Assembly (NCBI GenBank): GCA_013265495.1
Contig: MU057654.1
Coordinates: forward strand, 71,789 to 135,788
DNA: 64,000 nt
Direction of reading: 5' to 3'
Origin: Vicugna vicugna
Taxonomy: Eukaryota
Part shown: positions 2,471 to 57,899 of the stretch, one piece after another
Numbering within the stretch: position 1 is the first letter of the stretch
Layout: each line of letters starts with the position of its first letter
Translations under genes and position numbers: made by a program
The notes under the pieces: model-generated
Seen by the model: the letters and a program-made list of their open reading frames with translations, nothing else
The model's database searches: none
What the model was told of the DNA's origin: nothing

Positions 2471-3339
2471 CTCGTTTTTTAAAACGTATTTTCTTCTCTT
2501 CTCCTCTTATCTTCCATTTTTACACTGGAATAGCACCCACCCATTGAGCCCTAGAAAGAAGAAAGTACAAAATAACAGAAAGAAGGGTCTGCCATATAAC
2601 AAACTGAAATTAGGACACCTGTGTCCTAAATACCAGATCCATCTTTTCCTATAGACCAATGGTAGCCATTTTCCTTATGGTGGCCTCATCTGTAACACAG
2701 GAAACGTTTGTGTATCCCAATGGTTAGCAAAATGGGCTTTGATGTCAGATAAAGTTAGATGTCAGCTGGGCAAATTTAATTACTGATTTCATGATCTTTA
2801 TAGTGAACATTGAACCTCCAGAGATATGAAACCCATATGTAATATATAAGCATTATATGTGTCTACATGGAGAATATGACCAGAGTAAATGCAGAAATAA
2901 CCTACATCATTTTAAAATCACTGAGTGGTAGGTTTCAGGTTATTTACATATTTGTTTCTGGGCTTGACAATGTTTTCCACAATTTCTAAGCTAGTAATAG
3001 ATCATTTAATTAAAAGTAGAATTAAAGCTCAGAGAAGGAGTGCTTGCTATAAATCTTTCATACATAGATTTATAGAAAATAATATAACAGACTTCTATAT
3101 ACTCAGATTAAGAAATAAAATATTACATATGCAGTTGAAACTCACTTTGAAGTCTTCTCTGATTATATTAGCCTCCTTCTTCCCCAGAGGTAATTACTAT
3201 CAAGATTTTGGGTTTTTCATACTTAGGACTTTTCTTTATAGTTTATTACAAATGCATATATATAGTTTTATTACATATGTTTATATCCCTAAGTGAAATA
3301 TGGTACTGTTTTCTTGCATGGTTATATCTATAGGTGCTG

Positions 3340-3590
3340 GCTACCTGATGGAAAGGAGGAAGGAAGAAACATAAGGAGAACAAATACACATTCACATCTC
3401 AACACTGTGACCTGCCATATATGCCTTCCTTACCATGTGTATTCTCTTGCAGAGCTACTAAAATGGACACAGCCTTTTTTTTTTTAGTTTATGTGCTGTA
3501 GGGAGCACTAACACATTCTGCAGATACTATTTTCAGCCTTTTTTTCCCTGATGTCTTCAAAGTCTTAGTTTCCCAAGTGCCATCTAGCTC
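3340..3590 (+). pseudogene. Tentative H2A-like remnant
   Basis: ICLPYHVYSLAELLK vs VYLAAVLEYLTAEILE; downstream ILQIL vs HLQLA and VSQV. Few identities. Confidence 0.2.
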
Positions 3591-4519
3591 AAAATAATTT
3601 CTCAGTATATCCTTAATATAAAATATCTTTCCATTTGTCCAGGCCTCATTTACTGGCTTTCATTCACAATTACTCATGTAAGCCTATGTATCCAGAACCT
3701 AATCTGTAGTATCCTGGTGAAAGTTAGTTCTTCTGTGTCCGTATTATTACCCATATTCATTGATTGGCTTAAGGATGCATCCTATTTTGAACTTGATCTG
3801 ATTTTATATTGCAAGTACTGGCCATGCATATATTTTCCTTTCCTTTTATTGTTTTTAATTGCACAAGAAAGGTAATTCAGTGGTGTTTTAATATGCCTGA
3901 TTGCTTCTGAATGAGCCTGTGACTAAACTTTAACCCTGAATCCCACCACTTAAGGGTTATCCCCTCTGGATGCTGTGGAGCTGAGCTCTGGGCCATCTCA
4001 TGCAGGCCCTCACCCTTTCCCTCCCCTGTGGCATTCACTGCTTGGCTAACTGGGAGGTTAGGCTGATGAGCCTACTTTTAATTTAAGGAGATTTATTTGG
4101 GAGAGTACAGAAAGAAAAATGTTGTGAAACTGCTTTTATCTAAAATCCAGGAAAGTGGAGACCATCTGTTGAATGTAAGGTTTATTTGAGAGACATGCTT
4201 GCCCTTCCCCTAGGCATTTATATTTTCCCTGAAGCTGCTAAATGGGGACTGTCATGTGGATAGATTCATGAATTAGTTTCATAATCACCTTATTAACTAA
4301 TTCCCTTGGTTTAGGTATGTTCTTCAGCTGACACTGACTCACTTTCCTATGGAACACCTGGGGATATTTATTTTTTCTCTTTATCCTTTTCACTTCAAAA
4401 CTCAGGTGTTTTTGTTGTAGATAAAAGTGGGAAATGCAGGAAAGGTAAACAAAAAAACTTAGAAACCCTTAAAAGTCTATTACTCATGGATAAACACGTT
4501 TAATAGTTGAATATAATGT

Positions 4520-7144
4520 TTTTCAGAAAACAAGACCTACCTGTATGTTGTCTACAAGAAACCCACTTTAAATACAAAGATTCATATAGATTAAAGGTAA
4601 ATGGATAAAGAATATTCTAACATGCTAACGCTAACCAAAAGAAAGCAGGAGTAGCTATTTTCATTTCAGACAGAGCATACTTCAAAGCAAGGTAAGTTAT
4701 CAGAGATAAGTAAAGGCATTACACAATGATCAGAGAGGTCAATTCTGCAATACATAACAATCCTTCATGTTTATGTGCCTAACAACAAAGTGTGAGGCAA
4801 AAAAATGTGAGGCAAAAACTAATAGAATTGTGAAGGGAAGATTGATCACATGATCATATCAATACATTTGACAAAAGCATTTAATAAAATGTATCACCCA
4901 TTCATGATTTTAAAAAAACCTCGCAGTAAACTAGTAATAGAGGAGAAATTCCTCACATCGATATTGAATATCTACAAAACCCAATAGCTGGCATCATACT
5001 AATGATGAGAAACTTAAAGTTTCCCCACTAAAATTAGGTACAAAGTAAGGACGTCCTCTCTCACAACGCCTTTTCAGCATCATACCGAAAGTTCTAGCTA
5101 AATAAAAAGAAGAGGAAATAAAAGTATACAGATTAGGAAGGAAGAAATATGATGGTCTTTGTTCACAAATGACATTATCATCTATGTAGAAAATCCAAAA
5201 GAATTAACAACAACAAAAAATACCCCTTTGGAACAAATAAACAGTTATGGCAAGGTTGCAGTATACAAGGTTAATATGCCACTTTCCTATATACCAGCAA
5301 AAAAAGTAGAGTTTGAAGTTGAAAACACAATGCCATTTACATTAGCATCCCCCAAAATGAAGTACTTAGGTATAAATCTAACAAAATATCTATAAGATCT
5401 ATATGAGGAAAACTATAAAACTCTGATGAGTGAAATCAAAGAACTATATAAATAGAGATATTCCAGTTCATGGACAGGAAGACTCAATATTGTCAAGATG
5501 TCAGTTTTTCCCAACTTGGTCTGTAGGATCAATGCAGTACTCCTAAAATCCAAGCAAGTTATTTTGTGGATGTTGAAAAATTGATCCTAAAATTTACAGT
5601 GAGAGGCAAAAGACCCAAAATAGCCAACACAATATTGAAGAGCAAAGTTGGAAGACTGACACTACCCAACTTCAACACTTATTATAAAGCTATAGTAATC
5701 AAGACAGTGTGGTTTTGGCAGAAGAACAAATAGATCAGTGGAACAGAATAAAGAGCATATAAATAGACCCATATTAATATAGTAAACTGATCTTCAACAA
5801 AGGAGCAAAGGCAATAGAATGGAGTGAAGATACCACACATGGGGCTGAAACAACTGGGCATCCACATGCAAAAAAAAAATGAATCTAGACACACACTTTA
5901 CACTCTTCACAAAAAATAACTCAAAACACAGACCTAAATGTGAAACATAAAACTATAAAACTTCTGGAAGATAAAAGAGAAAATCTAGACACCCTTGGTT
6001 ATGGCAATGACTTTTAAGATATAATAGCAAAGACACAATCCATGAAAGAAATAATTGATAAGCTAGAATTTATGAAAATTAGAAAATTCTGCTCTGCAAA
6101 GAACAGTGTCAATAGAAAGAGAAGACAAGTTAAAGACTGGGAGAAAATATTGCAAAAGACATCTGATAAAGTACAGTCATCCAAAATTTATAAAGAATTC
6201 TTAAAACTCAACAATAAGAAAACGAACAACCTAATTTTAAAAAATGAGACAAAGACCTTAACAGACAACTCATCAAAGAAGATATACAGATGGCAAATAA
6301 GCATAGGTAAAGATGCTCCACATCATATGTCATCAGAGAAGTATAAATTAAAACAACAGTGAAATACCACTACACATTTATTAGAATGGCCAAAATTCAG
6401 AACACTGGCAACACCAAGTGCTAGGGAGGATTTGGTGCAAAAGGAGCTCTCATTTATTGCTGATGGGAATGCAGATTGGTTACAGCCACTTTGGAAGACA
6501 GGTTGGTGGTTTCTTACAAAACTAAACATACTCTTACCACACAGTCCAGTAATCACACTCCTTGGTGTTTACCCAAAAGAGTTCAAAACTTATGTCCACA
6601 CAAAAACATCCACACAGATGTTTATAGCAGCTTTATTTATAATTGCTTAAACTTGGAAGCAATAAGATGTCCTTCATTAGGTGAATGGATAAATAAACTG
6701 TGGTACATTCATACACTGGAATATTATTCAGTGTTAAAAAGAAATAATCTATCAAGCCTTGGAAAGACATGGACAAACTTTAAATGCATATTACTAAGTG
6801 AAAGAAGCCAACCAGAAAAAGGCTACAATACCTTTTTGAATTAGTGTTTTCATATGCTTTGGATAAATACGCAGAAGTGGGATAGCTGGATCATATGGTA
6901 GTTTTATTTCTAATTTATTGAAGAATCTCCGTACTGTTTTCCATAGTGGCTGCACCGGTTTACATTCCAACATACACCAACAGTGTATAAGGGTTACTTT
7001 TTCTGTACATCTTTGCCAACACTTGTTATTTCTTACCTTTTTTATAATAGCCATTCTAATAGTGTTCATTGCAGCATTGTTTACAATAGCCAAGATACAG
7101 AAACAATGTAAGCGCCCATCAATGGATGAATGGATAAAGAATAT

Positions 7145-7179
<35 letters not shown>

Positions 7180-8016: not shown

Positions 8017-8441
8017 TCAGTTATTAGTGAATGGAAGGATCAATACTTGTGTGTCAAAGAAATAGTAGTAAGTTTTTAGATTTTTGCCTCTCACGGAGGC
8101 AGCAGATGGCTGATGTCCTCGTGTGATGTAGCTGGATGATGCATGATTTTTTTCGAAGACCCCTGCACTGGTGACTATGGAGTGGGTCCCAAATTTCCCT
8201 ATAAATATATTAACATACCAAACAGTCCAGGAGCAGCAGTTAGGCAAACACCACACCTTGCTGCCCTGGTGCCATCTCTCACTGAGCTCACCAGATGAAG
8301 CAAAGACGAACATGTCTTCCCAGCGTGGGGAACTGGATTAGGATCTGCTCAGAGGCACGTTGTTGGACAGCTCTTATGAGCTTCTGAGCCTCCCAAGAAC
8401 CTAGAGATCGTCCTGACTCCAAAACTTTGAACTCAAGGCAT
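8017..8441 (-). pseudogene. Decayed histone H2A-like gene
   Basis: Ordered motifs IQFP, GELSER (vs GNYSER), VCLTAA-LDCL (vs VYLAAVLEYL), KKSCII (vs KKTRII), AIC (vs AIR); ATG at 8441. Confidence 0.6.
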
Positions 8442-10151: not shown

Positions 10152-10829
10152 ACTAGAACTAACAAGATGAAAATATAAACCTTAAGAAGAACAGTAAGCA
10201 GAGAGGCAAGATGCAAAAGATGAATAATGAGATTCCTCTTTTGGAAAAGACATGTGTTTGTGCAGGTGTTTATGTTTGTGTACCCTCACCTACATAGACA
10301 CGTCTGGGAGGGAAACACCTATCTATGACAATAGATCTTTTTTGGGTCAGGGGGTGGGGGTCAGACCTGTAAGAGAGATGATAAAGTGTACTTTAACATA
10401 TTGTTTGGAATGTATTCAGGAAAAAGCATTTTCATACAAATTTGAAAAGAAAATACCACGAACAGACTGACAAAGGTAATGTGAACGTGTATTTATTACT
10501 TTGGAAAAAGCATTCACTGTATTCAGTTTTCTGGGGAAATGAAGTAAATTTAAAAATAGAATTGACTCTGTGTGTGTGTTTCTGGGTCTCCTCTAGCTCT
10601 ATAACCCCCAATACTCACATGGTTACAAGTGCAGTTTTCTCTTCAGTTCAGACCAGGGCTGGACATCCTATCTCAGGTTTATATATACCAGAAAATGATG
10701 GACACAGATGGATTACTCGCAGTAAATGCCAATTTCCAGAAAATACTGGCTGATATCAGTAAGTAGAGATCAAAATCTCAATCTTTCTCTTCCTCTTGCC
10801 CAGTCCCCTGGTCTGAGCCTCTCATAGCT

Positions 10830-10860
10830 TGCAATTCTGGGTATGACCACCAGATGGCGT
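10830..10860 (+). promoter_or_regulatory. CTCF motif with upstream motif
   Basis: TGCAATTCT-N5-TGACCACCAGATGGCG. Confidence 0.7.
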
Positions 10861-10999
10861 TTATCCTACATTTCTGTTTTAAGGAAAAGGAGTATATTTT
10901 CCAAAAATGTCCAATTATATGAAATAATTTACTATGATACCAGTTCCTTTGGAAAATTCATTTATATATTAAAACAGTTCCACCTGCTTTTGACTACAA

Positions 11000-12489: not shown

Positions 12490-12526
<37 letters not shown>

Positions 12527-17200: not shown

Positions 17201-17209
17201 TTACTAGCA

Positions 17210-20490: not shown

Positions 20491-20627
20491 TTTTTACTTT
20501 GTGGGTGGTAATTAGATTTGTTTGTTTGTTTGTTTGTTTGTTTTTAGAGGAGGTACTGGGGATTGAACTCAGGACCTTGTTGTGCATGCTAAACATACGC
20601 TCTACCACTTGAGCTATACCCTCCCCC
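20491..20627 (-). mobile_element. tRNA-derived SINE, Vic-1-like
   Basis: Minus GGGGAGGGTATAGCTCAAGTGGTAGAG…GAGTTCAATCCCCAGTACCTCC (A/B boxes); TSD TAGAGAATATTCTT / TAGAGGATGTTCTT. Confidence 0.9.
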
Positions 20628-20702
20628 TATAGAGGATGTTCTTAAGTGAAGTATTTTTTTCTTTTACTATAACTATGTACAGTTGAAGAATTAATGAATG
20701 CT

Positions 20703-20848
20703 GGGGGCAGGGAGGGTATAGCTCAGTGGTAGAGCATATACCTAGCATGCACAAGGTCCTGAGTTCAACCCCCAGTACCTCCATTAAATAAACAAACAAA
20801 CAAACAAACAAACCTAATTACCCCCACAAAAAATATTAAAAAGAAAAA
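20703..20848 (+). mobile_element. tRNA-derived SINE, Vic-1-like
   Basis: GGGAGGGTATAGCTCAGTGGTAGAG…GAGTTCAACCCCCAGTACCTCC, (AAAC)n and A tail; TSD AATTAATGAATG / AATTAATGAACG. Confidence 0.9.
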
Positions 20849-26746: not shown

Positions 26747-27230
26747 TGTTAGGAGGCAATTTTTCATGGAATTTCTACATGTCTTATGACAGATTTTGTC
26801 TAGAAATATCTTTTCAAGGTTGTTTTCAGAGCAAACAGCCTTAGAAGATTGTCTGCCATCTGGTCAGAGGACAGATTTGATTCCTGGACAAGGTAGCAAA
26901 GATAATGCCTCTGCTGGGCAAAGATTGGTCAGATTTGCCAGCAGTCTCTTCATAAAATTGGCATATTCCTTAGCTGTGATGCAGATACACTGGATATACA
27001 GTATCAACCTGGTCGCTCTGCATCCTCCCCATGGGACTTAAGGGGCAAAACAATGGGAACATGAAGCTCATGCTCCCTGCTGTATCATAAGTGAAAAATG
27101 ACAGTTGTCTTGTCTCCTTGTCTTCTTACCTAATATATGAAAGTGTGCTTGGCCAGTGTAGCAGCTACAGTAGCTTCTGCTGTACAGGAATTGCTTGACC
27201 ACTTGAAACTCACTACATTGTCACACATGG
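26747..27230. mobile_element. Old solo LTR-like element
   Basis: TGTTAGGAGGC start and ~480 bp of LTR-like sequence; family not assigned. Confidence 0.5.
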
Positions 27231-31100: not shown

Positions 31101-31943
31101 GTGTTTTAAAAATGAATGAATATGAACTGTAAATGACTAGAATCAAATTAAAATGAAAAGGTTAGAATATTAATATTAGAATACAGTGAACTTGGAGAGG
31201 ACATTGGTTCTTAGAATATTTGATTTAGATATTTTTGTGCTGTTTTGGGATCCTTGATTACGTATTTAAATAAATTTCTTAATATAGGTCCTGTTGAAAA
31301 TATTTGGGGGTATATTTATCATGTTAGTCTTGTTTTCCTTGGCTTGATGCTGATAATTTTTTTATTTACTGCAGTAAAGCTGTTTTCTTTATTTAATCTT
31401 TTTCCATAAGACACAACATTAGAGCATGATTGTTCACTTAGTCCCTCCTCCATTCATCTACTCTCTATGCTCACTTAATCCCTTCTCTGATTCTCCCACC
31501 AGGTTAACAATCAGATGTGTTAATTTCCCCTTCTTGTCTTCAATGTCAAGCTCCATTTTTCCTTTCTCCTTCTCAGTTTTCATCTGTATCAATCATCCCT
31601 GCACTCCCAGTCTTCATTCCACAGCACAATCATGGTGTATTTTTAAGTTAATGTTCTAATACTTCTATTTTATTTCTGAGTTTGCAAATGGACAACAGCC
31701 AAAAACATACCACGATTGTCCCAATGTATTCAATATGTTAAATTGTCTTCTCATATGACACACTAATGCATGAGAACAGTATACTAAAGTAACATTGGGA
31801 AAACACTTATATGATATTAAATATATGGTATTAAATATATTCCAATGGAAATTAAACTATATTTCAATGAAAATTATACAACTTAGTGAAATGCTACTTT
31901 TGTTTTTTCAAACTTGCCTACAGTTCTTTTTCTGAATACTTGC

Positions 31944-33555
31944 ATGCTCTGAAAACAGCCTTCGGTTTCACAAAATTTTGTTTTGTACGCATAAGGCAAT
32001 CAGGTGGCACCACCTTGGGAACTTATGTGCAGGTGATTTTGAGACAGTTTTTCTTAGTTCCCTTAAGCAGCAATATCCTTTTTCAAATTATTTTTTAAGA
32101 TTTATCTAATATTCCAGAATAATGATAGATAATAGTCCTGATAAGGGAGCTCATTGTCCTGAATCCTGACTCTAATGATGATAATATTATTTCAGCACAA
32201 AACAAATATTATCCAACTCATCATATTAGCAATGGAATTTGAAGCATCTACTGAGATTATCCCCAAATTTTCTTTTTTCTTTTAATGCCACAAAGTGAAT
32301 CATGTTTATATTTTACTGAAAACTGAACCATCACTGTATTCTTAGGTGAATCCCAGTTTACCCTTTAATGTTCATCTTTTAATGAGAAATCCAATTTGAC
32401 TGCTAATATTTTATGTTGGACTTTTTGTGTCCTCATTTATAAATATGACTGCTCAGGATTCTTCTTAGTATGTTTTCCTCAATAGATTTTATCATTATAT
32501 TTTTAAAATACAATTTTGATTTTTTCTTTCATAATTAAGAACATTTAATTAGCAGTTAGAAATACTTAATTCCTAAACTGTCTGACAGAAAATATTCCTG
32601 GAAGCCTGGACATTTGTGATGATAGCTCATTAATTACTTCAATTTCTTCCATTCTTCTTAGTTTTTAAGGGTTTGGGGGGAGTATTAATTTTTACAGTTT
32701 ATTTTATCCACAAATTCATGCATTTTTATTGACATTTTTAGTGTATTACTATAGCTTTTCAGGGAAATATCCCATTAATTTTTAAGTATTATTTATTATT
32801 CTCTTTTCTTCTTAAGGAGATTACTTAGAGTTGTAATTTAATGATTTTTTTTCTGCCAATCATGCTCATGTTTATATATCAATTTCACAGTTTGGGTTTT
32901 TTTTTCCCTAGAACTTAAGCATCATCAAGAAAACAATTTTAAACTTGGTAAATGTTTAAGGATGTATTGCATTTTTATAAATAATTCAATTTTTGTTTGT
33001 GTTATCTCTTTGGAGACAGGATTTTGCCATTTCTACTTTTGCCAATCCAATGAAGTTTTTAAAAGTCTACTTTTTATAACACTTTATTGAGGTATACAAA
33101 CAGCTATACATAATTAGTGTACATACTTTATGAATTTGTAGATAAGTATACACCTGTGAAAACCTTCACCACAATCAAGGCTACAAACATATTCATCACC
33201 TCCAAAAGTTCCCTCCCTTTCTCTTTATTTATTGTTTTTTAAACTTTTTTTTGTGGTAAAAGCACTTAACATAAGATCTATATTCTTAGCAATTATTAAG
33301 TATATAATATAGTATTGTTAACTATAGGCACTTTGGTAAGGCCAGAGGCATTGGATGGTCAGCCAAGTCCCTTGTTTTCCAGAAGCACTTCCCCAAGTCA
33401 GGGAGTTCCTCTTCAAGCCCAGGTAGCCCAAGACCCAGACAACAGTGGAATCTGGATCAGAGGACAAAAGGCCCAGATGTAGCCAGTATCAATCCTCTGG
33501 CATTATGGACTTGGGTTATGGAGGCCAGAATTTTTCAAAGGACTGAAGCTGACAT
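31944..33555 (-). pseudogene. Decayed H2A gene split by L1 sequence, with stem-loop
   Basis: ATG at 33555; QVH, VLGYL and ENK motifs in 33555-33340; C-tail ILLLKGTKKNCLKITCT* at 32076-32023; minus AAGGCTGTTTTCAGAGC at 31962-31946. Confidence 0.65.
32100..33335 (-). mobile_element. L1 fragments inside the H2A pseudogene
   Basis: Degraded antisense ORF2-like sequence, then an L1MA/MB-type 3'UTR at 33070-33335. Confidence 0.7.
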
Positions 33556-33838
33556 CTCTACAGTGTTGGTGCTATAGGAGTATCTTTTCAAAGTACTTGT
33601 GGTGGAGTCCATAGGAAGCACGTAGGTATCTTGCCTCCTAATTGGCCCACGCCAAGTAAGGGAAATATCTAGCCACATCTAATATGGTGTGATTTATTGA
33701 CAGGCTTTCCTGCATTGCGTTTTATCCAACTAAATTATTGAGTTTACCCAAGACCTCATTTGAATGCAGGGCCTTTATATGGGATGCACCGTGTCACTAA
33801 CATTTTTTCCCCCAAGGTACTGGAAAGATGTGTCTGTC
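33556..33838. promoter_or_regulatory. Remnant H2A/H2B bidirectional promoter
   Basis: 283 bp between divergent ATGs; ATTGG at ~33641; octamer-like ATTTGAAT at 33758-33765; TATA-like TTTATAT at 33774-33780. Confidence 0.7.
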
Positions 33839-34224
33839 ATGCCTGAGATCTCTTCTAACTTTTCTATGTTTAGCAGGAAGTGTTCCAAGAAAGCTGCTTC
33901 TAAAATCCAGTAGGTTAAAAAAAAAAAAGAATGAGACACTGCTACTGAGAGTGTTATTCCACCTTTGTCTATAAGGTTCTGAAACAGGTTTGCTCTGACA
34001 TGGGCATTTTATCAAAGGCCATGAGCATCATGAGTTCTTTCCTTGATTGCATGCTCAAGTGCAACTCAGATGAGGCCTCCTACCTGGCCTGTTGCAAAAG
34101 GTGCTCAAACATCACCTCCAGGGAGGTCTAAACAGCCTTGTGCCAGCTGCTGCCCATAAAGGCAGCTGATCACACTGGGTCTGAGGACACCAAGACCATC
34201 ACCAAGTACACAGTCACAAATTAA
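33839..34224 (+). pseudogene. Histone H2B pseudogene, H2B.1/TSH2B-like
   Basis: MPEISSNFSMFSRKCSKKAASKIQ* then YKVLKQVCSDMGILSKAMSIMSSFL…EASYLA…ITSREV*TALCQLLP…SEDTKTITKYT; two in-frame stops plus a disrupted linker. Confidence 0.97.
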
Positions 34225-34254
34225 TTGCCCTTAGGAGGATTTGAGTAGCAAACA

Positions 34255-34278
34255 CCAAAGGCTTTTTTCAGGCCACAT
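34255..34278 (+). terminator. Histone mRNA 3' stem-loop remnant
   Basis: CCAAA GGCTTT TTTC AG-GCC ACAT vs consensus CCAAA GGYYYT TTYC AGRGCC ACC, ~30 nt after the stop. Confidence 0.85.
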
Positions 34279-34966
34279 ACTTTTTTTTATAATAATAACT
34301 GTAGCCCAGTCAAGTCTGATCTGTTTTATTTTTTTAGACTTGTTGCATTCTGCTCATATGAAGATGTCATTCTTATAATGAGTTAAATATTATCTGATCT
34401 CAAGTTGAATGTATCTGTAGTAAAAGTTGTTCAGAACAAAATAGTAAATTATGTCCAATAATATTCTATTTTACTGCTTTACTAAAAGGGCAGTTCTGGT
34501 AGTTATTTTTCTACCCTTAAAGGGTTCTGTGAGGTCAAAGCTATTTTCATAATGATGTTATTGACTTTTCACCCCCATTCTTCCGTGGGTATACAGTGGA
34601 ATTTCCAGAGATACATCATATGTGAGATATCAAAGCATAAACATAAAAAACAGACATCTCAAGTTAATGATTTTACTGCTTTTCTACGTATGGGATGATG
34701 CAAGAATCTGGGCTCATTAAAATGATTCCTTAGATATGCATCTTAACTATCTAGGGCTAGTATCCAGAGCACGGAATGTTTCATTTTTCTCTATCCTGAA
34801 TTCCCCTCAGGGCAAACCCTTTGGGGTCAGCTGCAGTGGCTAATGACTTGGTGGGGGGCAACAATTGTTTACTGGAATGGCAGGCAATATTATTTACTGA
34901 AATGGCAAACAACATTTTTTGTCTGAACATTTTTCATATGAGCTTGGATTTTATGTTATCATGTAA

Positions 34967-35741: not shown

Positions 35742-36389
35742 TTTTCAGTTGATCCAATTGCATTGCAAGTAAGTAAATTGCTGGAATATTTTTTGTCTTT
35801 CAGGGGTCAAACCTCTTTAAACATTAATTGCCTAATATTTTGTATACTTTCAAATAATTTTAATATAAAACTTTTTTGTCACATTGACTCTAAGAGTGAC
35901 GACATTAGCATTTCTTCAGCAAAAGTGATACTGGGCTTTTATGAAGTCTATGTTCAAAATACCATTTTTGTTTTTCTAAGCATCTTAGTATAAGAAATAT
36001 CAAACATTAACATATGCCCTTTTAGCAACTTTTGAGATGAATTTTTTTTTATATTTTAGTTTATTCAAATAAATTAAACTTATAGTTTCATAATATTAAA
36101 TCATCCTAGCATTCTTGGAAAGAAATCCCTTATTAGGGGGCACTTAAAGAAATGGAAGTATGTTGTGATTGGCTTGTTAATTGGCTGATATCATTTAAGC
36201 CTGCTGTTTTGGAAGTGACTTGGATGTTGCAAGTTTATCTGAGATCTTTCGTTGTTGATTCAATCAACATTCACATCTATTTCTGAACCTCATTTGAATA
36301 TAACCCTACATAAACATCCTACTTCATTGTTCGGCTCATAATTCATTCTCCAACTCATACTTTTTTCTTAAAATGAAGTTACTTTCCTA

Positions 36390-36940
36390 ATGCCTTGAGG
36401 AATTATTTTGTTCCTCCAAAAAAGGGCCTAAAATGCCTGACCAAGAAAAGGAATGTTAATGTGTTTCTTGGAGCCTGCCAGGACAGCCATTCTACCTACC
36501 TGTAGAAGGATCCTGTGCCCTCACCATTCTGTTGAGCTGGTTCATCGAGACTTTTTGCTTTCCCAGGTAAAATAACCTGGGACACAGACCATCTTCCTAA
36601 TCTTTACATATGAGGAAAACAAAGCTCATTAGTGGGAGGAAAGGAACATAGACCCAGGTCCCTAGAACTTAAAATGAATATTCTGGTGGTATCATACCAC
36701 AGAACAATAGGAGAACATCTCCCTCTCCTAGACCTGTAATGGACAGCTAAGGGACTAAGGGGTGGAGACTAGGACAAGCGGAGATTAGAATGAGGGCCTT
36801 GGTACCAATCTCAGGTTTCCCACAGAGGCATCTTAGAAAAGGCTGTAGGATCTTAGAAAAGAACTTCACAGCTCTGACTGTCACAGAATAGAGATGATAT
36901 TTCCACATCCCAAAAGACCATGGTGAAGTATCTGTGGAAA
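36390..36940 (+). pseudogene. Decayed H2B gene with promoter remnant, interrupted by a MIR-like fragment
   Basis: CCTCATTTGAAT (octamer-like, 36288-36299) and two ATTGG upstream; ATG CCT, PPKKG, QDSHSTYL*K (vs KESYSIYVYK), VHRD, KTMVKY. Confidence 0.75.
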
Positions 36941-37807: not shown

Positions 37808-37963
37808 GGTTTTGTTTTTTTTGTTGTTGTTGTTTTTTGTTGGGGGAGGTGGTAATTAGGTTTATCTATTTGTTTGATTTTTCAGTGGAAGTATTGGGGA
37901 TTGAACCCAGGACCTCAGGTATGCTAGGCATGCAGCCTACCACCTGAGCTACCCCCTCCCCCC
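37808..37963 (-). mobile_element. tRNA-derived SINE, Vic-1-like
   Basis: Minus A/B boxes; TSD CTATTCTGTTCTGT / CTACTTTGTTCTGT. Confidence 0.88.
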
Positions 37964-38072
37964 TACTTTGTTCTGTTGATTTAAGACAGAAGATCCTCTG
38001 TCTTTGGTCTCTGTGAGGCATACTTGGGAAGCACCTATGCTCATGGTAAAAGCTTACCTACTGCATTGTTTC

Positions 38073-48569: not shown

Positions 48570-49056
48570 TCTAAGTGTCAAAAATAATTCCAGAAATATC
48601 TCTAGAAGCAAGATATTATCTCCCCACACTCACCCTTTCCACCAACCTATGTGAGTTTTTAAAAATTATATGAGATCTATTGGGACACTTTTCGTATCCA
48701 AGATTGTTCTGGAGACTGCTTTGGATGATTATAGGATCTAATCAGGGGTGAAGCTGAAGGAAAACCTTAGAAGAGCACATGTCTGATGATTAAGGGTGCC
48801 AGTTGAGGCAGCAGAGTTGATTTTCTGATGTTTTATATGATTATATTGCCAGGGTGGTCTTCATCATTTTACCCCATATCATAGGTCTCAAACAAGTTCA
48901 GTGTTGATATTGAACAAATATTACTTCTACATAATTGCTTCCATTGCATTCCTCCCCAATTCTTTCCACCTCTTAAGGAGCTGCTGCTCTTTTTGTTAGA
49001 AGGAATCATCTACTCAGGACCCCTGTACAACTGAGTAAGGATCTTTTCAGAGTTGT
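48570..49056 (+). pseudogene. Decayed H2A gene with stem-loop remnant
   Basis: One frame from 48661: KNYMRSIGTLFVSKIVLETALDDYRI*SGVKLKEN; frameshifted IAQGG at 48845; AAGGATCTTTTCAGAGTT at 49037-49054. Confidence 0.7.
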
Positions 49057-52329: not shown

Positions 52330-52992
52330 ATAGAATGGAGCCTGGGGACAGTGGATGGGAACAGAGGCCTCTGATAAGATTCATCTGGGCATGTGTACCT
52401 GCTTGCCTAGGCAGATTTGAACCAGTTGGAGAAACGACAGCCTATTCCGATTGTTTTGGCTGTTGTGGAGGGTGAATAAACCCTCTTGTTATAGCAACTT
52501 GACTGAGACTTCTATAAAAAAACAAACAAAAAATGAAATTAATGAACAAGTCAAAAAAAACAGAAACAGACATATAGATACAGAGAATAGAATAGCAGTT
52601 ACCAGAGGGGTAGGAGTGGAGAGGGTAAAATGGGTAAAGGGAGTTCAACTATATGGTGTTGGATGGAAACTCAGATTTTGCTGGTGAACACACTGTAGTG
52701 TATACAGAGGTAGAAATATAATGTTGTATACATGAAACTTATGTAATGTTATAAACCAGTGTTACCTCAATAGATAAGTAAATATTTAACAAAATAAAAT
52801 AAAAGATCCCTGCCTGCAAATATTAGGATCATATATCAAAAATCAAGGAGCAGTAATTCTTTGGTACAATCAAAGAAGATGTGTTACTCACATAGGTGAG
52901 GAAATTCTGAGGCAAGACACTAGGAAGATGGCTGTCTGGAAGAAAGTCTGAGAAAGAGAGAGTGCGACAGTGAGAAGTAAGTCCACAGGCAT
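52330..52992 (-). pseudogene. Decayed H2B gene split by an L1 3' end
   Basis: ATG CCT at 52992; QNFLTYV…VP (vs ESYSIYV…HP); YNKR at 52493-52482; LGKQV. Confidence 0.55.
52516..52805 (+). mobile_element. L1 3'UTR fragment
   Basis: AGATACAGAGAATAGAATAGCAGTTACCAGAGG…GTTACCTCAATA plus an A-rich tail. Confidence 0.88.
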
Positions 52993-53199
52993 TTTATAAC
53001 TAGTGGTTAACTGGCTCGTGGGTGATACCTATAAGGACCCTAGTTGGGGTGTGTCGGAGGGTGGCTGAAAGCTTCTGACATGAATCCCGAGCTATCTTTA
53101 AGACTTAAAAGCAAAGTTTTACATTTGAAAAAATATTACAAAAGTGGTTGAACATTTCCTTTTTGCCCCCCTCCCCAAAGGTGCTATGGAGTAATTTCT

Positions 53200-53480
53200 T
53201 AGGGGGAAACTGAACTGATTAAATACTCCAAACAAGTAGGATAAAAAGGAGCCCAAGCAGTTTGGCATTGAGCTGAAGTGGTGGAATCCCACATCCAAAC
53301 CATGAGCCCCTGGTGTGCTGGGAGTGCCTGTTTATTATGATGGAAGTCGCAGGTATTTTCATCCCAGATCCTGTAGAGGCTCCTCATTCGGTATTACTGT
53401 AATGAGATGGATCCAGAGCTGGTATCCTATTTAATAATACTAGCCCAGAGAACTAAACTAAGATCTTTCTTCTTCACTGG
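53200..53480 (+). pseudogene. Decayed H2A gene
   Basis: QF…GVPVY at near-canonical spacing (53258-53335), SQIL* (vs AEILE), DPEL…ILAQ. Confidence 0.55.
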
Positions 53481-54149
53481 AAGATCCACACAGTTGTAAG
53501 TATGGTATCAGTTGTGGAGACTTATATTCCCGGGAAAGAGGAAACTCTAGTTAACCAAACTTTAAAACCATCATATTGGGGCAGGACAGCAGACTTTGGT
53601 GGAAAGCTTCCTTGTGGCATACAGAGTAAATTTGTGGAGGTGGGGCAGACTCAATTTTCAGTGAGTCTCGTTCTATTATTTGCCCTTCATCCAGGCACCA
53701 GTTCAGCATGATTTGTACCAGGATAGAAAACAGATAATAGAATGGGGATGTCATTAAGTTGAAGGTGCTATTACATTTAGGTATTGTATACCTAGACCTA
53801 TAAGTGAGAAGTGCCCATTTATGGCTAGAAAGAGGATGACAAATGGTTAAGGAAACAAATGGCAAATTCTAAAAGAGATTCAGTATATAGAAATATTTAA
53901 TAAAAAACCTGACTTCAAACTTCTTTCTGATTGCATGATAATTGACCAGAGAGTTACATATTTTCCCTAAATATTTATTTCCTCGTCTGTGAGCTAGAAG
54001 TGGATGTACACATCAAATAACAGTGTAGTAAGAGTAAAAGAAAGAATGCACATAACTTAAGCAGCATTGTTCCTGGCATTTAACAAATTCTCAATGTATG
54101 TTAGCTGAACATATAATTACCTGTATTCCTCTCAGCCAACCAGGAAAAG

Positions 54150-54449
54150 AATAAAGATTAGTGGTTGGAGACTGGGGAAGTTAATGCATTTTGTCCAATC
54201 CAGTATTCTCCCCTGGCACTGTTATGTGAACAGACCTGCAGAGATCCTCTGCTGGGAAATGGGCGGTGTGGGAAATTCCTTGCTGGCTGAAATGAAACTG
54301 GTGAGCTCTGGTTGTAGGTAGTTGACATTCTGGCATCCACTGTTTCAGTCTGCATCCAGGCTGCGGTCTTAGGGTTCCTAAGTCCCTGCCCACTGTGGAC
54401 TCTGCTCTGACTTCAGGCCTTTTACATCAACCGACCCTATCAGCACCAT
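54150..54449 (-). pseudogene. Decayed H2A gene
   Basis: RAE..VGRDLGTLR (vs RAG….VGRVHRLLR), SSPVSF, FPAEDL. Confidence 0.5.
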
Positions 54450-54724
54450 GTGATAATGTAAATGTGAAATTGTACTATTTGCAGCCATAATAATAATGTA
54501 AGAGAGAAAAGAGGTTATCACTGAATATGGCTATTAATTATGGGTTTTTTCTATACTTTTCCCAAAACCTTTATTTAAAATAGATTGCAATAGATACTGT
54601 TTTTAGCCATAGGTCAGTGCCATCTGGTGAAGACATCCAATATTATGACAGAGATTTGAGGGGATGTCAGGGGATTTTATGTGTTATAAATATCACATTT
54701 TGTTTTATTTTTTAAAGTTGTGGT

Positions 54725-55095
54725 TTCTTTTCATTTTATTTACTTTAGGGGGGAGGTAACTAGGCTTATTTATTGATTTTTTAAATGGAGGTACTGGGGA
54801 TTGAACCCAGGACCTTGTGCTTGCTAAGCACTGCACTCTATTACCTATTTTATATACAGTAGTGTGTATCTGTTCATCTCAAACTCCTAGTTTATCCCTG
54901 CCCCCCACTTTCCCCTTTGGTAACCTTAAGTTTGTTTTCTATGTCTGTGAGTCTATTTCTGTTTTATAAATTCATTTGTGTCATTTTTTAGATTCCATAT
55001 ATAAATGCTATCTTTCTCTGACCTACTTCACTTAATATGATAATCTCTCCATGTTGCTGCAAATGACATTATGTCATTCTTTTTTTTAACTGAGT

Positions 55096-55139
<44 letters not shown>

Positions 55140-55450
55140 ATACTCTTTATCCATTCATCTGTCAATGGACATTTAGGTTGCTTCCATGTCTTGGCTATTG
55201 TAAATAGTGCTGCTATGAACATTGGGGTGTATGTATCTTCCCTAATTAGAGTTTTCATCTTTTCTGGATATATGTCCTGGCGTGGGATTTCAGGATCATA
55301 TGGTAAGTCTATTTTTAGTTTTTAAAGTAACCTCCCATACTGTTCTCCATAGTGGCTGCACTAATTTACATTCCTACGAACAGTGTAGGAAGGTTCCTTC
55401 TTCTCCACACCCTCTGCAGCATTTATTATCTGTAGACTTTTTAATGATGG
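54725..55450 (-). mobile_element. Young L1 3' region joined to a 5'-truncated Vic-1-like SINE
   Basis: 54843-55450 is L1 ORF2 end/3'UTR lacking its own terminus; 54725-54842 is a SINE lacking its 5' ~20 nt. Confidence 0.85.
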
Positions 55451-55499
55451 TGGCAATAATGAATTTTTAATTTCCCTATATTATTCCCAGCAATGCATA

Positions 55500-55850
55500 T
55501 TATGTTTCACTGTAGAACATAGTGAAAGAACCACTGGTATGGTTATGTTTTTTGACGTATTTCTCAGATATTCAAAGATGTACTCCTTATTTCTTTTTGA
55601 CACCTCTGACTTCTGCCTTAGACGCACTCTCCTGCCTCCTTCTTCTTTCTGTGATTTGGTGAATCAGTAGTTAAAATTCATTTCAGCCAATACTGTCCTC
55701 CTTCCTGTGGCCCAGTGATATAAACAGACCATTTCAGTCAGTAAATTGAAAACCATGGAAAAGTTAATTACAACCATAAGAATGAATGCATTCTTTAAAT
55801 AAGGTTAATGAGTCCAATGTAACATCACTGTTGTGAGAAGATTGGGAAAC
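55500..55850 (+). pseudogene. Decayed H2B-like gene
   Basis: TYF; LVNQ…TISVSKLKTMEKL (vs FVND…TISSREIQTAVRL) in one frame from 55653. Confidence 0.4.
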
Positions 55851-56547
55851 TATGGGAAAAGTCTATCCCATAGCAGGCTTTCATCAGTTGTTACTCTCTG
55901 CCACATTCCACCTCCTCTCTCCTGTGAAAGAAATTACTTTGACATTCACTTAATCGCATTACTGTCATAGAGAGGAAAACAGGAAAGTAGGTGCTTAGTG
56001 TCATAACATATGACTGAGATGACTGAGATTTGGTGGCATTTTTGTGTTATGGCATGTCACCAAATGGAGTTAGGGAATGGGGAGAAAATTAACTAACTAC
56101 TTTCTTTTATTTCATGCATTATCCTCTCTCTTCTTTTTACTGTTTGATTGAACAGCAGACAGAGAATTTTCCATGAAGCCTAAGAGGGAAGAAGTAACTC
56201 CATAATTTAATATATATTTGTTGACTGCTATAGTCCAAAGACAGAAAATTGTAAGTGCCACACAGAGGTCAGCGGGCTGCAGAAAACCACTGCTAATCTT
56301 ACAGGTCCTTCAAAGCCATTGGGTACAAGACTTGCAGAAGAATGTTAAGGCTACCACAAAAACTCATGTTTTATGTCTGTCAGAGTCTATATAAAGAATG
56401 GCTTTTATCTCCATTCTATTTTAAAATGTTTATCGTTGATGGGACCTAAAATATATTCAGAATCCTGCTGGCCACAAAGTCTGGGAAGTGTAATTCATAG
56501 GCTTCCAGATTCTGCAACACAGGGAAGAGCAAAGATAAAGATGGATG

Positions 56548-57100
56548 CCACATAGAAGTGATATCATATGGTATTTTTTGTGGCTTACTTCACTTAGTAT
56601 GATGATCTTCAGGTCTATCCATGTTGCTGCAAATGGCGTTATTTTATTCATTTTTATGGCTGAGTAGTATTCCATTGTATAATTATACCATAACTTCTTT
56701 ATCCAGTCATCTGTTAATGGATATGGTGAAATAAGCCACAAAGAGAAATACTATATGGTATCACATGTAGAATGTAAGAAAAAAAGGACATAAATGAACT
56801 TATTTACAAAACAGACAGACTTACAGACATAGAAAACAAACTTATGGTTACCAGGGTGAAAGGAGGTGGGGAGGGATAAACTGGGAGTTTGGGATTTGCT
56901 GATACTAACTATCATATATAAAATAGACAAACAACAATGTCTCACTGTATAGCACAGGGAACTATAGTCAATACCTTGTAATGGCCTATAATGAAAAAGA
57001 ATATGAAAAGGAAAAGATATATGTATGAATGAATCATTATGCTGTACTCCGGAAGCTAACACAACATTGTAAACTGACTATACTTAAATAAAAAAAAAAG
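56548..57100 (+). mobile_element. Young 5'-inverted L1 insertion
   Basis: 56548-56723 is antisense, 56724-57100 is sense with a poly-A tail. Confidence 0.88.
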
Positions 57101-57379
57101 AAGGGGATGGAAAGGCTTCCCAGGGCTAGCTGACAATATCTGGAAAAGCCCTCTGAGTTTTATTACTCTAACCTTTCTGATTTAAAAACAAATCCCTGAT
57201 TCTCTATATTAACTCTTTTCTGTTTGAAATACCTAGTGCAGTTACTATTTTGCTGACTGAATCCTGAGTGATGCACAGTCCCCAGAGATTCTGATTGAAT
57301 AGTTCTTATACAATGGATTGTGATTCATATTTTGAGGAACAGTGCTTTTGAGGGAGTTCCCCCTCCCATAGTGAAAGGA

Positions 57380-57650
57380 ATAAAATTACACTCCCCTTTT
57401 TATGCTTACCTTGTCCTACTGGCTATTTCAGTGAACTATTTCCTGTCCATGACCTACCAAGTAAGTTCTTTGATGAGTAAAAGCTGCACTAACTTAGAGA
57501 AGGACAGAATAGAAGATTAGAGAAATGACTCAGGTAATAGTGGATCAATTACTAAGCCACAAAAACAACATAAAGATATGTCCTTAAGAGCCCAGCACTC
57601 CAAGTTTCTGAATTTGCTATTTAGCTCCAGCCAGTTGTCGCCAGTCAGGA
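57380..57650 (+). pseudogene. Tentative H2B-like remnant
   Basis: YAYLVLLAI (vs YVYKVLKQV), LMS…DRI. Confidence 0.35.
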
Positions 57651-57899
57651 ATCCACAACTAATACTGCCAATCTTCAAATGACTTTAAGAGATTTTTTTC
57701 CTTTCATGTGAAATGCCTCTTTTAAATGTTGACCAGGAAGTAAATAAATAATTGTGTAGTTAAAACGAAACATATCTGTGGGCCAGATCTGAGGACTTAG
57801 GGACCCAGGCCTAGGGACCACTAGTTTGCAGCCTTTGCCCTAGGACTTTACTGTGCTGGATCATGAGGAGTTAAAATAAAACAAACTACCTTTTGTTAC

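What the first reader, a model, noticed from the sequence alone, without database searches (positions are those of the whole stretch)
3300..57700. Fossil H2A/H2B histone gene array filling the region upstream of ZMAT1
Seen: most non-repeat gaps give ordered histone-fold motifs, about 25-30 remnants in all. Best supported are H2B at 33839, 36390, 42000, 45727 and 46830, and H2A at 8017, 31944-33555, 41450 and 48570. Independent non-coding hallmarks (octamer, TATA, stem-loop) sit at the expected positions. Known: replication-dependent H2A and H2B genes occur as divergent pairs, and germline short-H2A variants and H2B.W are X-linked, with H2B.W at human Xq22.2 near ZMAT1 at Xq22.1. Inference: this is a large, long-dead X-linked cluster of only H2A and H2B (I saw no H3, H4 or H1), possibly a birth-and-death nursery of germline variants. 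Only the 33.8 kb copy would probably be caught by routine annotation. Caveat: by-eye six-frame matching inflates weak hits.
Basis: partly seen in the sequence, partly recalled or inferred. Interest (0 to 1): 0.92.

Follow-up and report, generated by a model that had tools for sequence, protein, structure and literature searches.

The report
One dead H2B.W-related histone unit
Upstream of ZMAT1 there is no fossil array of 25-30 histone genes, only one decayed 3.5-kb histone unit that is an old relative of the loci carrying this genome's testis-type H2B.W genes.

Summary
Partly confirmed.

1. A clear H2B pseudogene lies at 33839-34224(+). It has three stops and two frameshifts, and keeps its promoter, stem-loop and HDE.
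2. An orphan histone 3' end lies at 31916-31974(-), probably the tail of an H2A gene.
3. A weak H2B 5' fragment lies at 36390-36509(+).

The other named sites (8017, 33555, 41450, 42000, 45727, 46830, 48570) score like control DNA. Frameshift-aware searches with nine H2A/H2B proteins from this genome found as many hits in 200 kb of control DNA and in the reversed window. DNA profiles found no fourth site and no H2A coding body.

New result: 31104-34629 is one unit. It is colinear at about 64% identity with a second pseudogene locus (G000:C8919). It also matches, in blocks, the units that carry this genome's H2B.W-type genes. The orphan 3' end is shared by three of these units, and their consensus sharpens it into an H2A-type tail. 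ZMAT1 downstream is confirmed.

So this is one ancient dead relative of the H2B.W lineage, not an array. Copies about 1.5 times more decayed would not be detectable.

The parts
31104..34629 (.). One decayed histone unit. It is colinear with the paralogous locus P (G000:C8919:238707-241798) and matches, in blocks, H2B.W-bearing units A and B on G000:C5769.
   Evidence: blastn of the window against L049: 31104-33060 with E 3e-177 (63.9% over 2004 nt) and 33345-34616 with E 2e-126 (64.1% over 1318 nt). Against L051: three colinear blocks, E 2e-59, 1.5e-12 and 5e-37. Identity table by 250-nt block.
31916..31974 (-). Orphan histone 3' end. The stem-loop GGCTGTTTTCAGAGCA lies at 31945-31960, followed by an HDE-like AAAGAACTGT.
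   Evidence: nhmmer H2B+flank profile: 13.4 bits, E 2e-4. The pattern matches with 2 mismatches. blastn to the 3' flanks of this genome's own histone genes gives E 3.9e-5. The element is present at the homologous place in P and A. Rfam Histone3 did not report it.
31975..32073 (-). Probable last ~16 codons (LLPK.T...K*) and 3' UTR of an H2A gene. The rest of that gene is absent.
   Evidence: The H2A+flank profile aligns model positions 346-494 to 32073-31920, E 0.004, 9.5 bits. On the consensus of three lineages the same hit rises to 25.4 bits, E 3e-9, with high posterior over the coding tail. No H2A body is found by nhmmer, tblastn or Pfam.
33052..33338 (.). Interspersed-repeat insertion, younger than the duplication that separated the window unit from P.
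   Evidence: All 39 other scored genome matches of the query 31850-34400 fall on these bases, at 71-78% identity. P is continuous across the site: L049 5509 is followed by 5521.
33712..33802 (+). H2B-type proximal promoter. It has a decayed CCAAT at 33726-33730, the octamer variant ATTTGAAT at 33758-33765, and a TATA-like TTTATAT at 33774-33780.
   Evidence: An nhmmer profile built from the 200 nt upstream of 8 H2B genes of this genome gives 22.4 bits, E 1.4e-6. The best of 200 shuffles was 11.3 bits. Alignment with P, A and B.
33839..34224 (+). H2B pseudogene coding region. It starts ATGCCTGAG and has 3 in-frame stops and 2 frameshifts.
   Evidence: The frameshift-aware alignment covers H2B residues 1-126, with 64 of 128 identical to canonical H2B and 66 of 128 to TH2B. 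nhmmer CDS profile: 170 bits, E 1.4e-51. Pfam Histone on one 60-aa piece: 20.4 bits, E 6.6e-4, below the cut-off of 26.4.
34255..34307 (+). The pseudogene's own decayed stem-loop (GGCTTTTTTCAG-GCC at 34260-34274) and HDE.
   Evidence: Rfam RF00032: 19.7 bits, below the gathering score of 34; E 0.098 in the 6-kb search. It is included in the nhmmer H2B+flank alignment that runs to 34307.
36390..36509 (+). Possible second H2B 5' fragment: ATGCCTtGAG plus the N-terminal tail up to ..SYS.Y.YK. No remainder of the gene and no stem-loop were found.
   Evidence: nhmmer H2B CDS profile: 10.5 bits, E 0.004; H2B+flank profile: 8.0 bits, E 0.009. 0 of 200 shuffles reached 9.5 bits, and control DNA peaked at 3.2 bits. 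Against it: protein-level score 42, matched by 0.667 of control windows. The promoter profile gives -1.0 bits. There is no match to copy 1, the unit consensus or the unit profile.

Best explanation
The window holds one ancient, dead histone unit at 31.1-34.6 kb, not an array.

CONTENT OF THE UNIT
- An H2B pseudogene of replication-dependent appearance. It has an MPE start, a CCAAT/octamer/TATA promoter, and a 3' stem-loop with HDE.
- About 1.9 kb upstream, in divergent orientation, the truncated 3' end of a second histone gene. This is most likely an H2A tail: its last ~16 codons, 3' UTR, stem-loop and HDE.

ORIGIN
The unit arose by DNA-level duplication, because the promoter came along with the gene. 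It belongs to a small family of paralogous units in this genome:
- P on G000:C8919, also a pseudogene.
- A and B on G000:C5769, which carry the H2B.W-type genes.

SHOWN
- The pseudogene, its promoter and its 3' end.
- The orphan 3' end.
- Colinear paralogy with P, and block paralogy with A and B.
- The orphan 3' end being shared by the window unit (W), P and A.
- Absence of any excess of histone-like hits elsewhere in the window.

INFERRED
- The founder was a divergent H2A-H2B pair whose H2A had lost its body before the units duplicated.
- The window copy died early and kept ancestral features, while A and B evolved into H2B.W.
- The age is of the order of 100 million years. This rests on about 36% nucleotide difference in non-coding parts and an assumed neutral rate.

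The unit has no present function. A short H2B 5' fragment at 36.39-36.51 kb may be a second, truncated relic.
For: H2B PSEUDOGENE
- tblastn 86-88 bits.
- nhmmer 170 and 195 bits.
- Full-length frameshift-aware alignment.

PROMOTER
- 22.4 bits, E 1.4e-6, against a shuffle maximum of 11.3. This excludes a processed copy.

ORPHAN 3' END
-, with real-DNA controls.

UNIT PARALOGY
- W against P: 3.3 kb colinear, E 3e-177 and 2e-126. P has a clean empty site where W carries a repeat.
- W against A: three colinear blocks.
- A genome-wide search with 33345-34650 finds flank matches only at P. The 15 replication-type H2B loci match the coding part only.
- The proteins of A and B are named 'histone H2B type F-M-like' and 'W-T-like' by exact look-up.

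SHARED ORPHAN 3' END
- Aligned in W, P and A.
- A majority consensus of the three lineages, built without reference to any histone model, restores a perfect stem-loop. It raises the H2A+flank score from 9.5 to 25.4 bits and the H2B score from 195 to 266 bits.

PHYLOGENY
- The ML tree of the histone-fold nucleotides gives (W,(P,(A,B))).

NO ARRAY
- Hits of at least 45 per 10 kb, summed over six queries: 8.6 in the finding region, 7.4 in 100 kb of same-contig flanks, 8.2 in 100 kb elsewhere.
- Real DNA gives 46 such hits; the reversed DNA gives 41.
- The unit profile and consensus find nothing else.

POWER
- Simulated copies decayed as far as W (K=0.5) were detected in 38 of 40 (H2A) and 39 of 40 (H2B) trials.
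Against: - Bootstrap support for placing W with P and H2B.W is weak (59 and 56), and all these branches are long.
- In coding sequence W is closer to replication-type H2B and TH2B (62-65% nt) than to A and B (54-55%). At 20 columns that separate canonical H2B from TH2B it scores 9:9:2.
- W keeps TKYTS and QTA where P, A and B have IRYT and QTS.
- Flanks group W with P (60-75%), while the 3' coding half groups P with A (73%). This needs selection or gene conversion to reconcile.
- The H2A reading of the orphan tail rests on about 16 codons. The same H2A profile also gives 27.2 bits on the true H2B 3' end.
- No H2A body is found in W, P, A, B or their consensus.
- Real histone queries give about 1.6-1.7 times more weak hits than reversed or shuffled queries. 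At 40 or more under strict settings the counts are 34 vs 16 vs 19.9. At 45 or more under lenient settings they are 65 vs 38 vs 41.9. The excess disappears only against real control DNA.
Confidence: 0.8

Rival explanations
1. One reading: the whole of 3.3-57.7 kb is a long-dead array of about 25-30 H2A and H2B genes, most of them too decayed for routine annotation.
For: Three histone-derived pieces do cluster within 4.6 kb. Real H2A/H2B queries give somewhat more weak hits than scrambled queries. The short-H2A query has 2.6 hits of at least 45 per 10 kb here, against 0.9 and 1.4 in controls. Copies with K of 0.75 or more would escape detection, so a much older array cannot be excluded.
Against: Hit densities equal those in control genomic DNA and in the reversed window. 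Seven of the ten named sites fall at control-window fractions of 0.08-0.39. The negative-control queries H3 and H4 give equally good or better 'hits'. Octamer count is at chance. The only Rfam stem-loop is the one at 34.26 kb. No further unit is found with a 3.5-kb unit profile. Copies of the same age as the real one would have been found in more than 95% of trials.
Confidence: 0.04
2. The 33.8-kb copy is an ordinary dispersed pseudogene of a replication-dependent or TH2B-type H2B with no special relation to H2B.W. The flank similarity to P, A and B reflects shared old repeats.
For: Coding identity is highest to canonical H2B and TH2B. W has the MPE start, an octamer-type promoter and a TKYTS C-terminus. 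Part of 31.2-32.2 kb matches several places and both orientations in L050, as a repeat would.
Against: W and P are colinear over 3.3 kb through the promoter, gene and downstream DNA, with one clean insertion difference. Fifteen replication-type H2B loci share only the coding part with W. P carries H2B.W-type residues (LARS, QTSV, AMSEGTKAVIRYT). The orphan 3' end sits at the homologous position in W, P and A.
Confidence: 0.1
3. The orphan minus-strand 3' end comes from an H2B or another histone gene rather than from H2A. The unit would then never have been a divergent H2A-H2B pair.
For: The stem-loop and HDE are common to all replication-dependent histone genes. The H2B+flank profile also hits it, at 13.4 bits in W and 16.1 on the consensus. 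The H2A profile scores as well on a true H2B 3' end. No H2A body exists in any copy.
Against: On the consensus the H2A profile aligns 16 coding codons with high posterior and with the right distance to the stop. The H2B profile aligns only the last 4-5 codons. The score is 25.4 bits with the H2A profile against 16.1 with the H2B profile. The divergent orientation fits the usual H2A-H2B pairing seen in this genome's own clusters.
Confidence: 0.25
4. The 33.8-kb copy is a processed (retrotransposed) histone pseudogene.
For: Histone genes lack introns, so intron absence does not settle the question. An A-run lies inside the N-terminal tail region.
Against: About 130 nt of H2B promoter upstream of the ATG is retained, E 1.4e-6. 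Kilobases of flank are co-duplicated. The 3' end is a stem-loop plus HDE without a poly(A) tail.
Confidence: 0.02

Closest known systems
H2B.W (H2BFWT/H2BFM) X-linked testis histone variant family, with its known pseudogenes (human H2BW3P, H2BW4P)
   Same: The window unit is paralogous in its flanks to the units that carry this genome's genes named H2B type F-M-like and W-T-like. It lies next to ZMAT1. The family is described as prone to duplication, pseudogenisation and gene conversion (PMC8857922, passages read).
   Different: H2BW paralogues are reported at one conserved X location, between RAB9B and 'SLC25A3' as printed (PMC9526256, passage read). This copy lies upstream of ZMAT1. Its coding sequence keeps replication-type features (MPE start, TKYTS, octamer promoter) and lacks the H2B.W-type IRYT and QTS residues.
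Replication-dependent divergent H2A-H2B gene pairs, including the TH2A-TH2B pair
   Same: It has H2B with a CCAAT/octamer/TATA promoter, a 3' stem-loop plus HDE, and a second histone 3' end in divergent orientation. Nucleotide identity to these H2B genes is 62-65%.
   Different: The ORF is broken by 3 stops and 2 frameshifts. The partner has lost all but its tail. The spacing is about 1.9 kb, against about 330 nt of intergenic DNA plus the H2A coding sequence in intact pairs of this genome. It stands isolated, not in a histone cluster.
Short H2A variants (H2A.B, H2A.L, H2A.P, H2A.Q), X-linked and eutherian-specific
   Same: According to PMC5880237 (abstract and passages read), these arose on the X chromosome in the eutherian ancestor and show birth-and-death evolution.
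   Different: No short-H2A-like sequence was detected in the window. This genome's H2A-Bbd-type protein gives only background scores.

Membership tests
H2B gene of replication-dependent type (here as a pseudogene) | Coding sequence homologous to H2B over the whole histone fold | tested here: met
   Residues 1-126 aligned, 64 of 128 identical. nhmmer 170 bits. tblastn E 2e-23.
H2B gene of replication-dependent type (here as a pseudogene) | Intact open reading frame | tested here: not met
   3 in-frame stops and 2 frameshifts. It is therefore a pseudogene.
H2B gene of replication-dependent type (here as a pseudogene) | 3' stem-loop and HDE in place of a poly(A) signal | tested here: met
   The nhmmer alignment runs through the stem-loop and HDE to 34307. 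Rfam RF00032 gives only 19.7 bits, below its gathering score of 34, so the element is decayed.
H2B gene of replication-dependent type (here as a pseudogene) | H2B promoter with CCAAT, octamer and TATA | tested here: met
   Promoter profile 22.4 bits, E 1.4e-6. The octamer carries one change (ATTTGAAT) and the CCAAT is decayed.
Divergent H2A-H2B pair | An H2A gene on the opposite strand sharing the intergenic promoter | tested here: inconclusive
   Only an H2A-type tail of ~16 codons, 3' UTR, stem-loop and HDE is present: 9.5 bits in W and 25.4 bits on the consensus. There is no H2A body and no H2A promoter hit.
H2B.W lineage | Descent from the same duplicated genomic unit as H2B.W genes | tested here: met
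   Colinear flank homology to P and to units A and B. The names of the A and B proteins were confirmed by exact look-up.
H2B.W lineage | H2B.W-type residues and grouping with H2B.W in a tree | tested here: inconclusive
   The tree gives (W,(P,(A,B))) with bootstrap 59 and 56. W lacks IRYT and QTS. Its 'CC' codons are two changes from the RS codons seen in P, by my own codon comparison of the outputs.
H2B.W lineage | Location at the conserved X-linked H2BW locus (RAB9B side) | tested here: not met
   The unit lies about 24 kb upstream of the ZMAT1 CpG-rich start region, on the ZMAT1 contig. Its distance to the H2B.W contig G000:C5769 could not be measured.
   No excess over control DNA. No further unit by unit profile or consensus.
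Processed pseudogene | No promoter, a poly(A) tail, and flanks unrelated to the parent locus | tested here: not met
   The promoter and kilobases of flank were co-duplicated.

The most novel reading that the evidence does not exclude
The 31.1-34.6 kb unit is a fossil close to the founder of the X-linked H2B.W family. On this reading, a replication-type divergent H2A-H2B pair was copied as DNA onto the X in early eutherians. The H2A half was truncated before the unit multiplied. The copy upstream of ZMAT1 died early and froze ancestral characters: an MPE start, an octamer promoter and a TKYTS tail. Its sisters lost the octamer, and in A and B a TGACGTCA motif stands near that place, as they became H2B.W. 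This would give a concrete answer to how H2B.W arose from replication-coupled H2B. PMC8857922 states that this question could not be resolved from protein trees (passage read).
Probability: 0.25. Interest if true: 0.6.

Novelty: new member of a known kind. Interest (0 to 1): 0.33.

Why it matters
As stated, the finding would have been a striking new X-linked histone 'graveyard'. It is not one, and this shows how easily by-eye six-frame matching produces histone-like patterns. The negative-control queries H3 and H4 matched just as well.

What remains is modest but useful to people who study germline histone variants.
- It is a dead relative of H2B.W that lies outside the canonical H2BW locus.
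- It keeps replication-type promoter and coding features.
- The H2B.W units of this genome share a truncated H2A-type 3' end.

Together these suggest that H2B.W came from a DNA-level copy of a divergent H2A-H2B pair. That idea can be tested directly by looking at the same places in other mammals. I found no paper that mentions a histone relic at ZMAT1, or an H2A remnant beside H2B.W. Both searches were limited to the held library: 1 paper with all four terms, an unrelated mouse neuroanatomy study seen as a listing only; the 10 of 14 matching papers that were listed show no occurrence of 'H2A-H2B gene pair'; 'bidirectional promoter' occurs only in PMC13396413, a paper on histone H3.4, not opened.

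Tried and rejected
1. H2A body opposite the H2B promoter (33339-33713, minus strand). By eye I found two mutually exclusive 'H2A' alignments. Region-limited frameshift-aware scores were only 27-29. nhmmer gave nothing at E up to 100. Pfam gave 0 families in 3 frames. The consensus gave nothing. Rejected.

2. My by-eye reading of an L1 ORF2 (reverse transcriptase) fragment in 32.05-32.95 kb. Pfam found 0 families in 3 frames. Dropped. The content of that stretch is unexplained, but it is shared with P and A.

3. Assigning copy 1 to TH2B rather than canonical H2B. Diagnostic columns scored 9:9:2, and the TH2B states are mostly A/T, which is the direction of decay. Undecided.

4. Similarity between copy 1 and copy 2. 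None was significant.

5. A promoter or a stem-loop for copy 2. Not significant.

6. Stem-loop-like 16-mers at 26818 and 49039, with 3 mismatches each. There is no coding support upstream of either.

7. The H2A-like hit at 8390-8193(-), which reads QFP.LGR.H.RL..G..SER. It scores 52, equal to the mean maximum of shuffled queries (52.6). A fraction of 0.083 of control windows score as high. Treated as chance.

8. The protein-atlas search on the ZMAT1 exon gave only the zf-met family and no gene name.

9. The search of earlier findings returned nothing for this genome.

The positions of P, A and B relative to ZMAT1 therefore remain open.

11. The supplementary figures of PMC8857922 (synteny figure S8) and of PMC5880237 were not opened. 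They may show H2B or H2A remnants outside the canonical loci.

Full report
CONTEXT

The window is G000:C604:71789-135788 of a 2.03-Gb mammalian assembly. It is AT-rich, with GC of 0.32-0.45, and has one GC-rich stretch at 58-60 kb. Three zf-met exons lie on the + strand 10-21 kb beyond the window's end. One of them is 100% identical over 96% of its 72 residues to a protein named zinc finger matrin-type protein 1. All of the top-listed relatives among 145 hits at E up to 1e-5 carry that name.

QUERIES FROM THE SAME GENOME

A six-frame Pfam Histone search of the whole genome gave 80 matches, none of them on the window's contig. From these places I fetched loci and read out ORFs:
- a canonical divergent H2A/H2B pair;
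- the TH2A/TH2B pairs;
- H2AX;
- two H2B.W-type genes;
- one short H2A;
- one H2B.L-type gene;
- H3 and H4.

Exact look-up later confirmed the source names 'histone H2B type F-M-like' and 'W-T-like' for the H2B.W-type genes, and 'histone H2A-Bbd type 1-like' for the short H2A.

WHAT IS REAL AT THE NAMED SITES

With eleven queries, tblastn finds one significant place, 33839-34215(+). TH2B scores 87.8 bits and canonical H2B scores 86.3 bits at 53% identity. The H2B.W-type queries score 48-50 bits. The next best hit is 27.3 bits on a lysine-rich tail, and the H3 control reaches 24.3 bits.

A frameshift-aware alignment covers H2B residues 1-126, with 3 in-frame stops and 2 frameshifts. DNA profiles built from this genome's own genes give 170 bits for the CDS. 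With the 3' flank added they give 195 bits over 33839-34307, running through a decayed stem-loop and HDE.

A profile of the 200 nt upstream of eight H2B genes hits 33712-33802 at 22.4 bits, E 1.4e-6. The best of 200 shuffled windows was 11.3 bits. The copy therefore took its promoter along and is not a processed pseudogene.

The same profiles find two more pieces.
- A stem-loop plus HDE on the minus strand at 31974-31916: 13.4 bits, E 2e-4.
- H2B nucleotides 29-133 at 36414-36509: 10.5 bits, E 0.004. An ATGCCTtGAG sits at 36390, exactly where the start should be.

In 200 block-wise dinucleotide shuffles of the window no H2B-profile hit reached 9.5 bits. The reversed window gave no H2B-profile hit. 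In 200 kb of real control DNA the best H2B-profile hits were 3.2 and 3.9 bits.

The 36.39-kb fragment is the weakest of the three.
- It is at background in protein space.
- It has no significant promoter or stem-loop.
- It shows no similarity to copy 1 or to the unit consensus.

I rate it about 0.7 likely to be real.

WHAT IS NOT THERE

I wrote a protein-against-DNA local aligner that allows frameshifts. I ran it on 3300-57700 with the real copy masked.

Under strict settings, the nine H2A/H2B queries give 34 peaks of at least 40. Reversed queries give 16, and shuffled queries give a mean of 19.9. Under lenient settings there are 65 peaks of at least 45, against 38 and 41.9. Real queries therefore do give a modest excess over scrambled queries. 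That excess is not special to this region.
- With six queries, real DNA gives 46 peaks of at least 45, the reversed DNA gives 41, and dinucleotide shuffles give 23.1.
- Per 10 kb the region has 8.6 such peaks. The 100 kb of flanks on the same contig has 7.4, and ten other places in the genome have 8.2.
- Top scores in the region (49-59) lie within the control maxima (49-65).

For the seven remaining named sites, the fraction of 420 control windows that score at least as well is 0.08-0.39. One control locus held 1150 N, which the script read as A.

The negative controls behave alike or better. H3 reaches 65 at 10644-10917. The octamer ATTTGCAT occurs 7 times against 5.4 expected. Rfam's histone stem-loop model reports only the 34.26-kb element. 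No H2A coding signal appears with DNA profiles at E up to 3.

A power test shows what this means. H2A and H2B coding sequences decayed in silico to the level of the real copy (0.5 substitutions per site, with indels) were found in 38 of 40 and 39 of 40 trials. At 0.75 they were found in 6 and 5 of 40. At 1.0 or more none were found. Siblings of the same age would have been seen. Much older ones cannot be seen by these methods, and the by-eye matches are no evidence for them.

THE UNIT AND ITS RELATIVES

A search of the genome with 31880-33060 returned a 67%-identical match of about 900 nt on G000:C8919. It also returned a match 2 kb from an H2B.W-type gene on G000:C5769. After fetching these loci, blastn shows the following.
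- Window 31104-33060 and 33345-34616 are colinear with L049 3707-5509 and 5521-6798. Identity is 64%, with E 3e-177 and 2e-126.
- The only interruption is at 33061-33344. That stretch is an interspersed repeat, carrying all 39 other scored genome matches. The paralogue (P) lacks it.
- Unit A, which carries an H2B.W-type gene, matches the window in three colinear blocks at 58-64% identity.
- Unit B matches in three same-orientation blocks, of which the two upstream ones abut in B, so that window 31423-32404, which includes the stem-loop, is missing there. A fourth block matches in the opposite orientation.

P itself holds an H2B pseudogene. Its promoter motifs are intact, its N-terminal half is frameshifted, and its C-terminal half carries H2B.W-like residues: LARS, QTSV and AMSEGTKAVIRYT.

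A genome-wide search with 33345-34650 finds flank homology only at P. Fifteen replication-type H2B loci match the coding part alone.

In non-coding blocks W-P identity is 66-75%, W-A is 50-64% and P-A is 50-62%. In the 3' coding half P-A rises to 73%. An ML tree of the histone-fold nucleotides gives (W,(P,(A,B))), with weak support of 59 and 56.

Using P, A and B as queries, and separately a profile and a consensus of the four units, I found no other unit in the window or in 100 kb of flanks. The exception is one 93-nt piece at 36012-36104, E 9e-5.

THE ORPHAN 3' END

The minus-strand stem-loop lies at the homologous position in W, P and A. I built a majority consensus of the three lineages without reference to any histone model. 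It restores a perfect stem-loop and an HDE.
- The H2B+flank score rises from 195 to 266 bits.
- The H2A+flank score on the minus-strand element rises from 9.5 to 25.4 bits, E 3e-9.
- High posterior probability extends over the last ~16 H2A codons (LLPK.T...K, then stop), and the distance to the stop is right.
- The H2B+flank profile aligns only the last 4-5 codons there, at 16.1 bits.

No H2A body or H2A promoter is found in any copy or in the consensus. The partner was therefore already truncated when the units multiplied.

One caveat applies. The H2A profile also gives 27.2 bits on the genuine H2B 3' end. I put the H2A assignment at about 0.7.

INTERPRETATION

The best reading is a single ancient unit, descended from a divergent H2A-H2B pair copied as DNA. 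It is one of a few paralogues, of which A and B became the H2B.W-type genes of this genome.

The window copy keeps replication-type characters:
- an ATGCCTGAG start;
- an octamer-type promoter;
- TKYTS at the C-terminus.

A and B have a TGACGTCA motif near the place where the octamer stands in W and P, and both carry H2B.W-type residues.

About 36% nucleotide difference between W and P in non-coding DNA suggests a split of the order of 100 million years ago. This is my inference from an assumed neutral rate of about 2e-9 per site per year. It would fit the early-eutherian origin of H2B.W stated in PMC8857922 (passage read).

That paper also states that the branching order of the H2B variant clades, and whether they derive from one or several duplications of replication-coupled H2B, could not be resolved (passage read). 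PMC9526256 places all H2BW paralogues at one conserved X location (passage read). A relic beside ZMAT1 lies outside that description.

VERDICT

The array interpretation is not supported. The suspected kinship with X-linked germline H2B variants is supported for one unit. This is a new member of a known kind, an old histone pseudogene of the H2B.W family in the wide sense. It has some value as a clue to the origin of H2B.W.

Noticed in passing
window 10644-10917 (+): The H3 control query gives the best weak frameshift-aware hit of all queries: score 65, with 26 of 91 residues identical. The maximum for shuffled queries was 54, and the maximum over 190 kb of control DNA was 55. An H3 DNA profile finds nothing there. 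It is probably chance, but it was not explained.
   Followed up: partly
window 20548-20783: Two tRNA-like elements lie in inverted orientation (Rfam tRNA, 42.4 and 34.3 bits). They look like a pair of tRNA-derived SINEs. Similar pieces occur at 37869-37991 and 54769-54831 and in the flanks.
   Followed up: no
window 58000-60000; G000:C604:146184-156905: A GC-rich stretch (GC 0.50) with alanine- and glycine-rich open frames is probably the ZMAT1 CpG-island start. The three zf-met exons of ZMAT1 follow 10-21 kb beyond the window's end.
   Followed up: partly
L049 5900-6480 (G000:C8919:240900-241480): The paralogue P is an H2B pseudogene. Its CCAAT, ATTTGCAT and TATA motifs are intact, its N-terminal half is frameshifted, and its GC-rich C-terminal half is still open and mixes canonical and H2B.W-type residues. 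It may have died recently or been gene-converted. Its genomic neighbours could not be fetched.
   Followed up: partly
L050 and L051 (G000:C5769), promoter block aligned to window 33690-33850: In both H2B.W-type units a TGACGTCA (CRE-like) motif stands just upstream of where W and P have the octamer, and no octamer is present. Unit B has ATA where unit A has the ATG, and its annotated protein starts further downstream. The CRE label is recalled and was not tested.
   Followed up: no
window 26818-26833 (+) and 49039-49054 (+): Two more 16-mers lie within 3 mismatches of the histone stem-loop consensus. In total there are 3 matches against 0.41 expected, and 1 of 100 shuffles had at least 3. Neither has histone coding similarity upstream above background.
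   Followed up: partly
window 32075-33050 (-): About 1 kb between the H2A-type tail and the H2B promoter region is shared with P and A. It has no Pfam match in three frames and no identified origin.
   Followed up: partly
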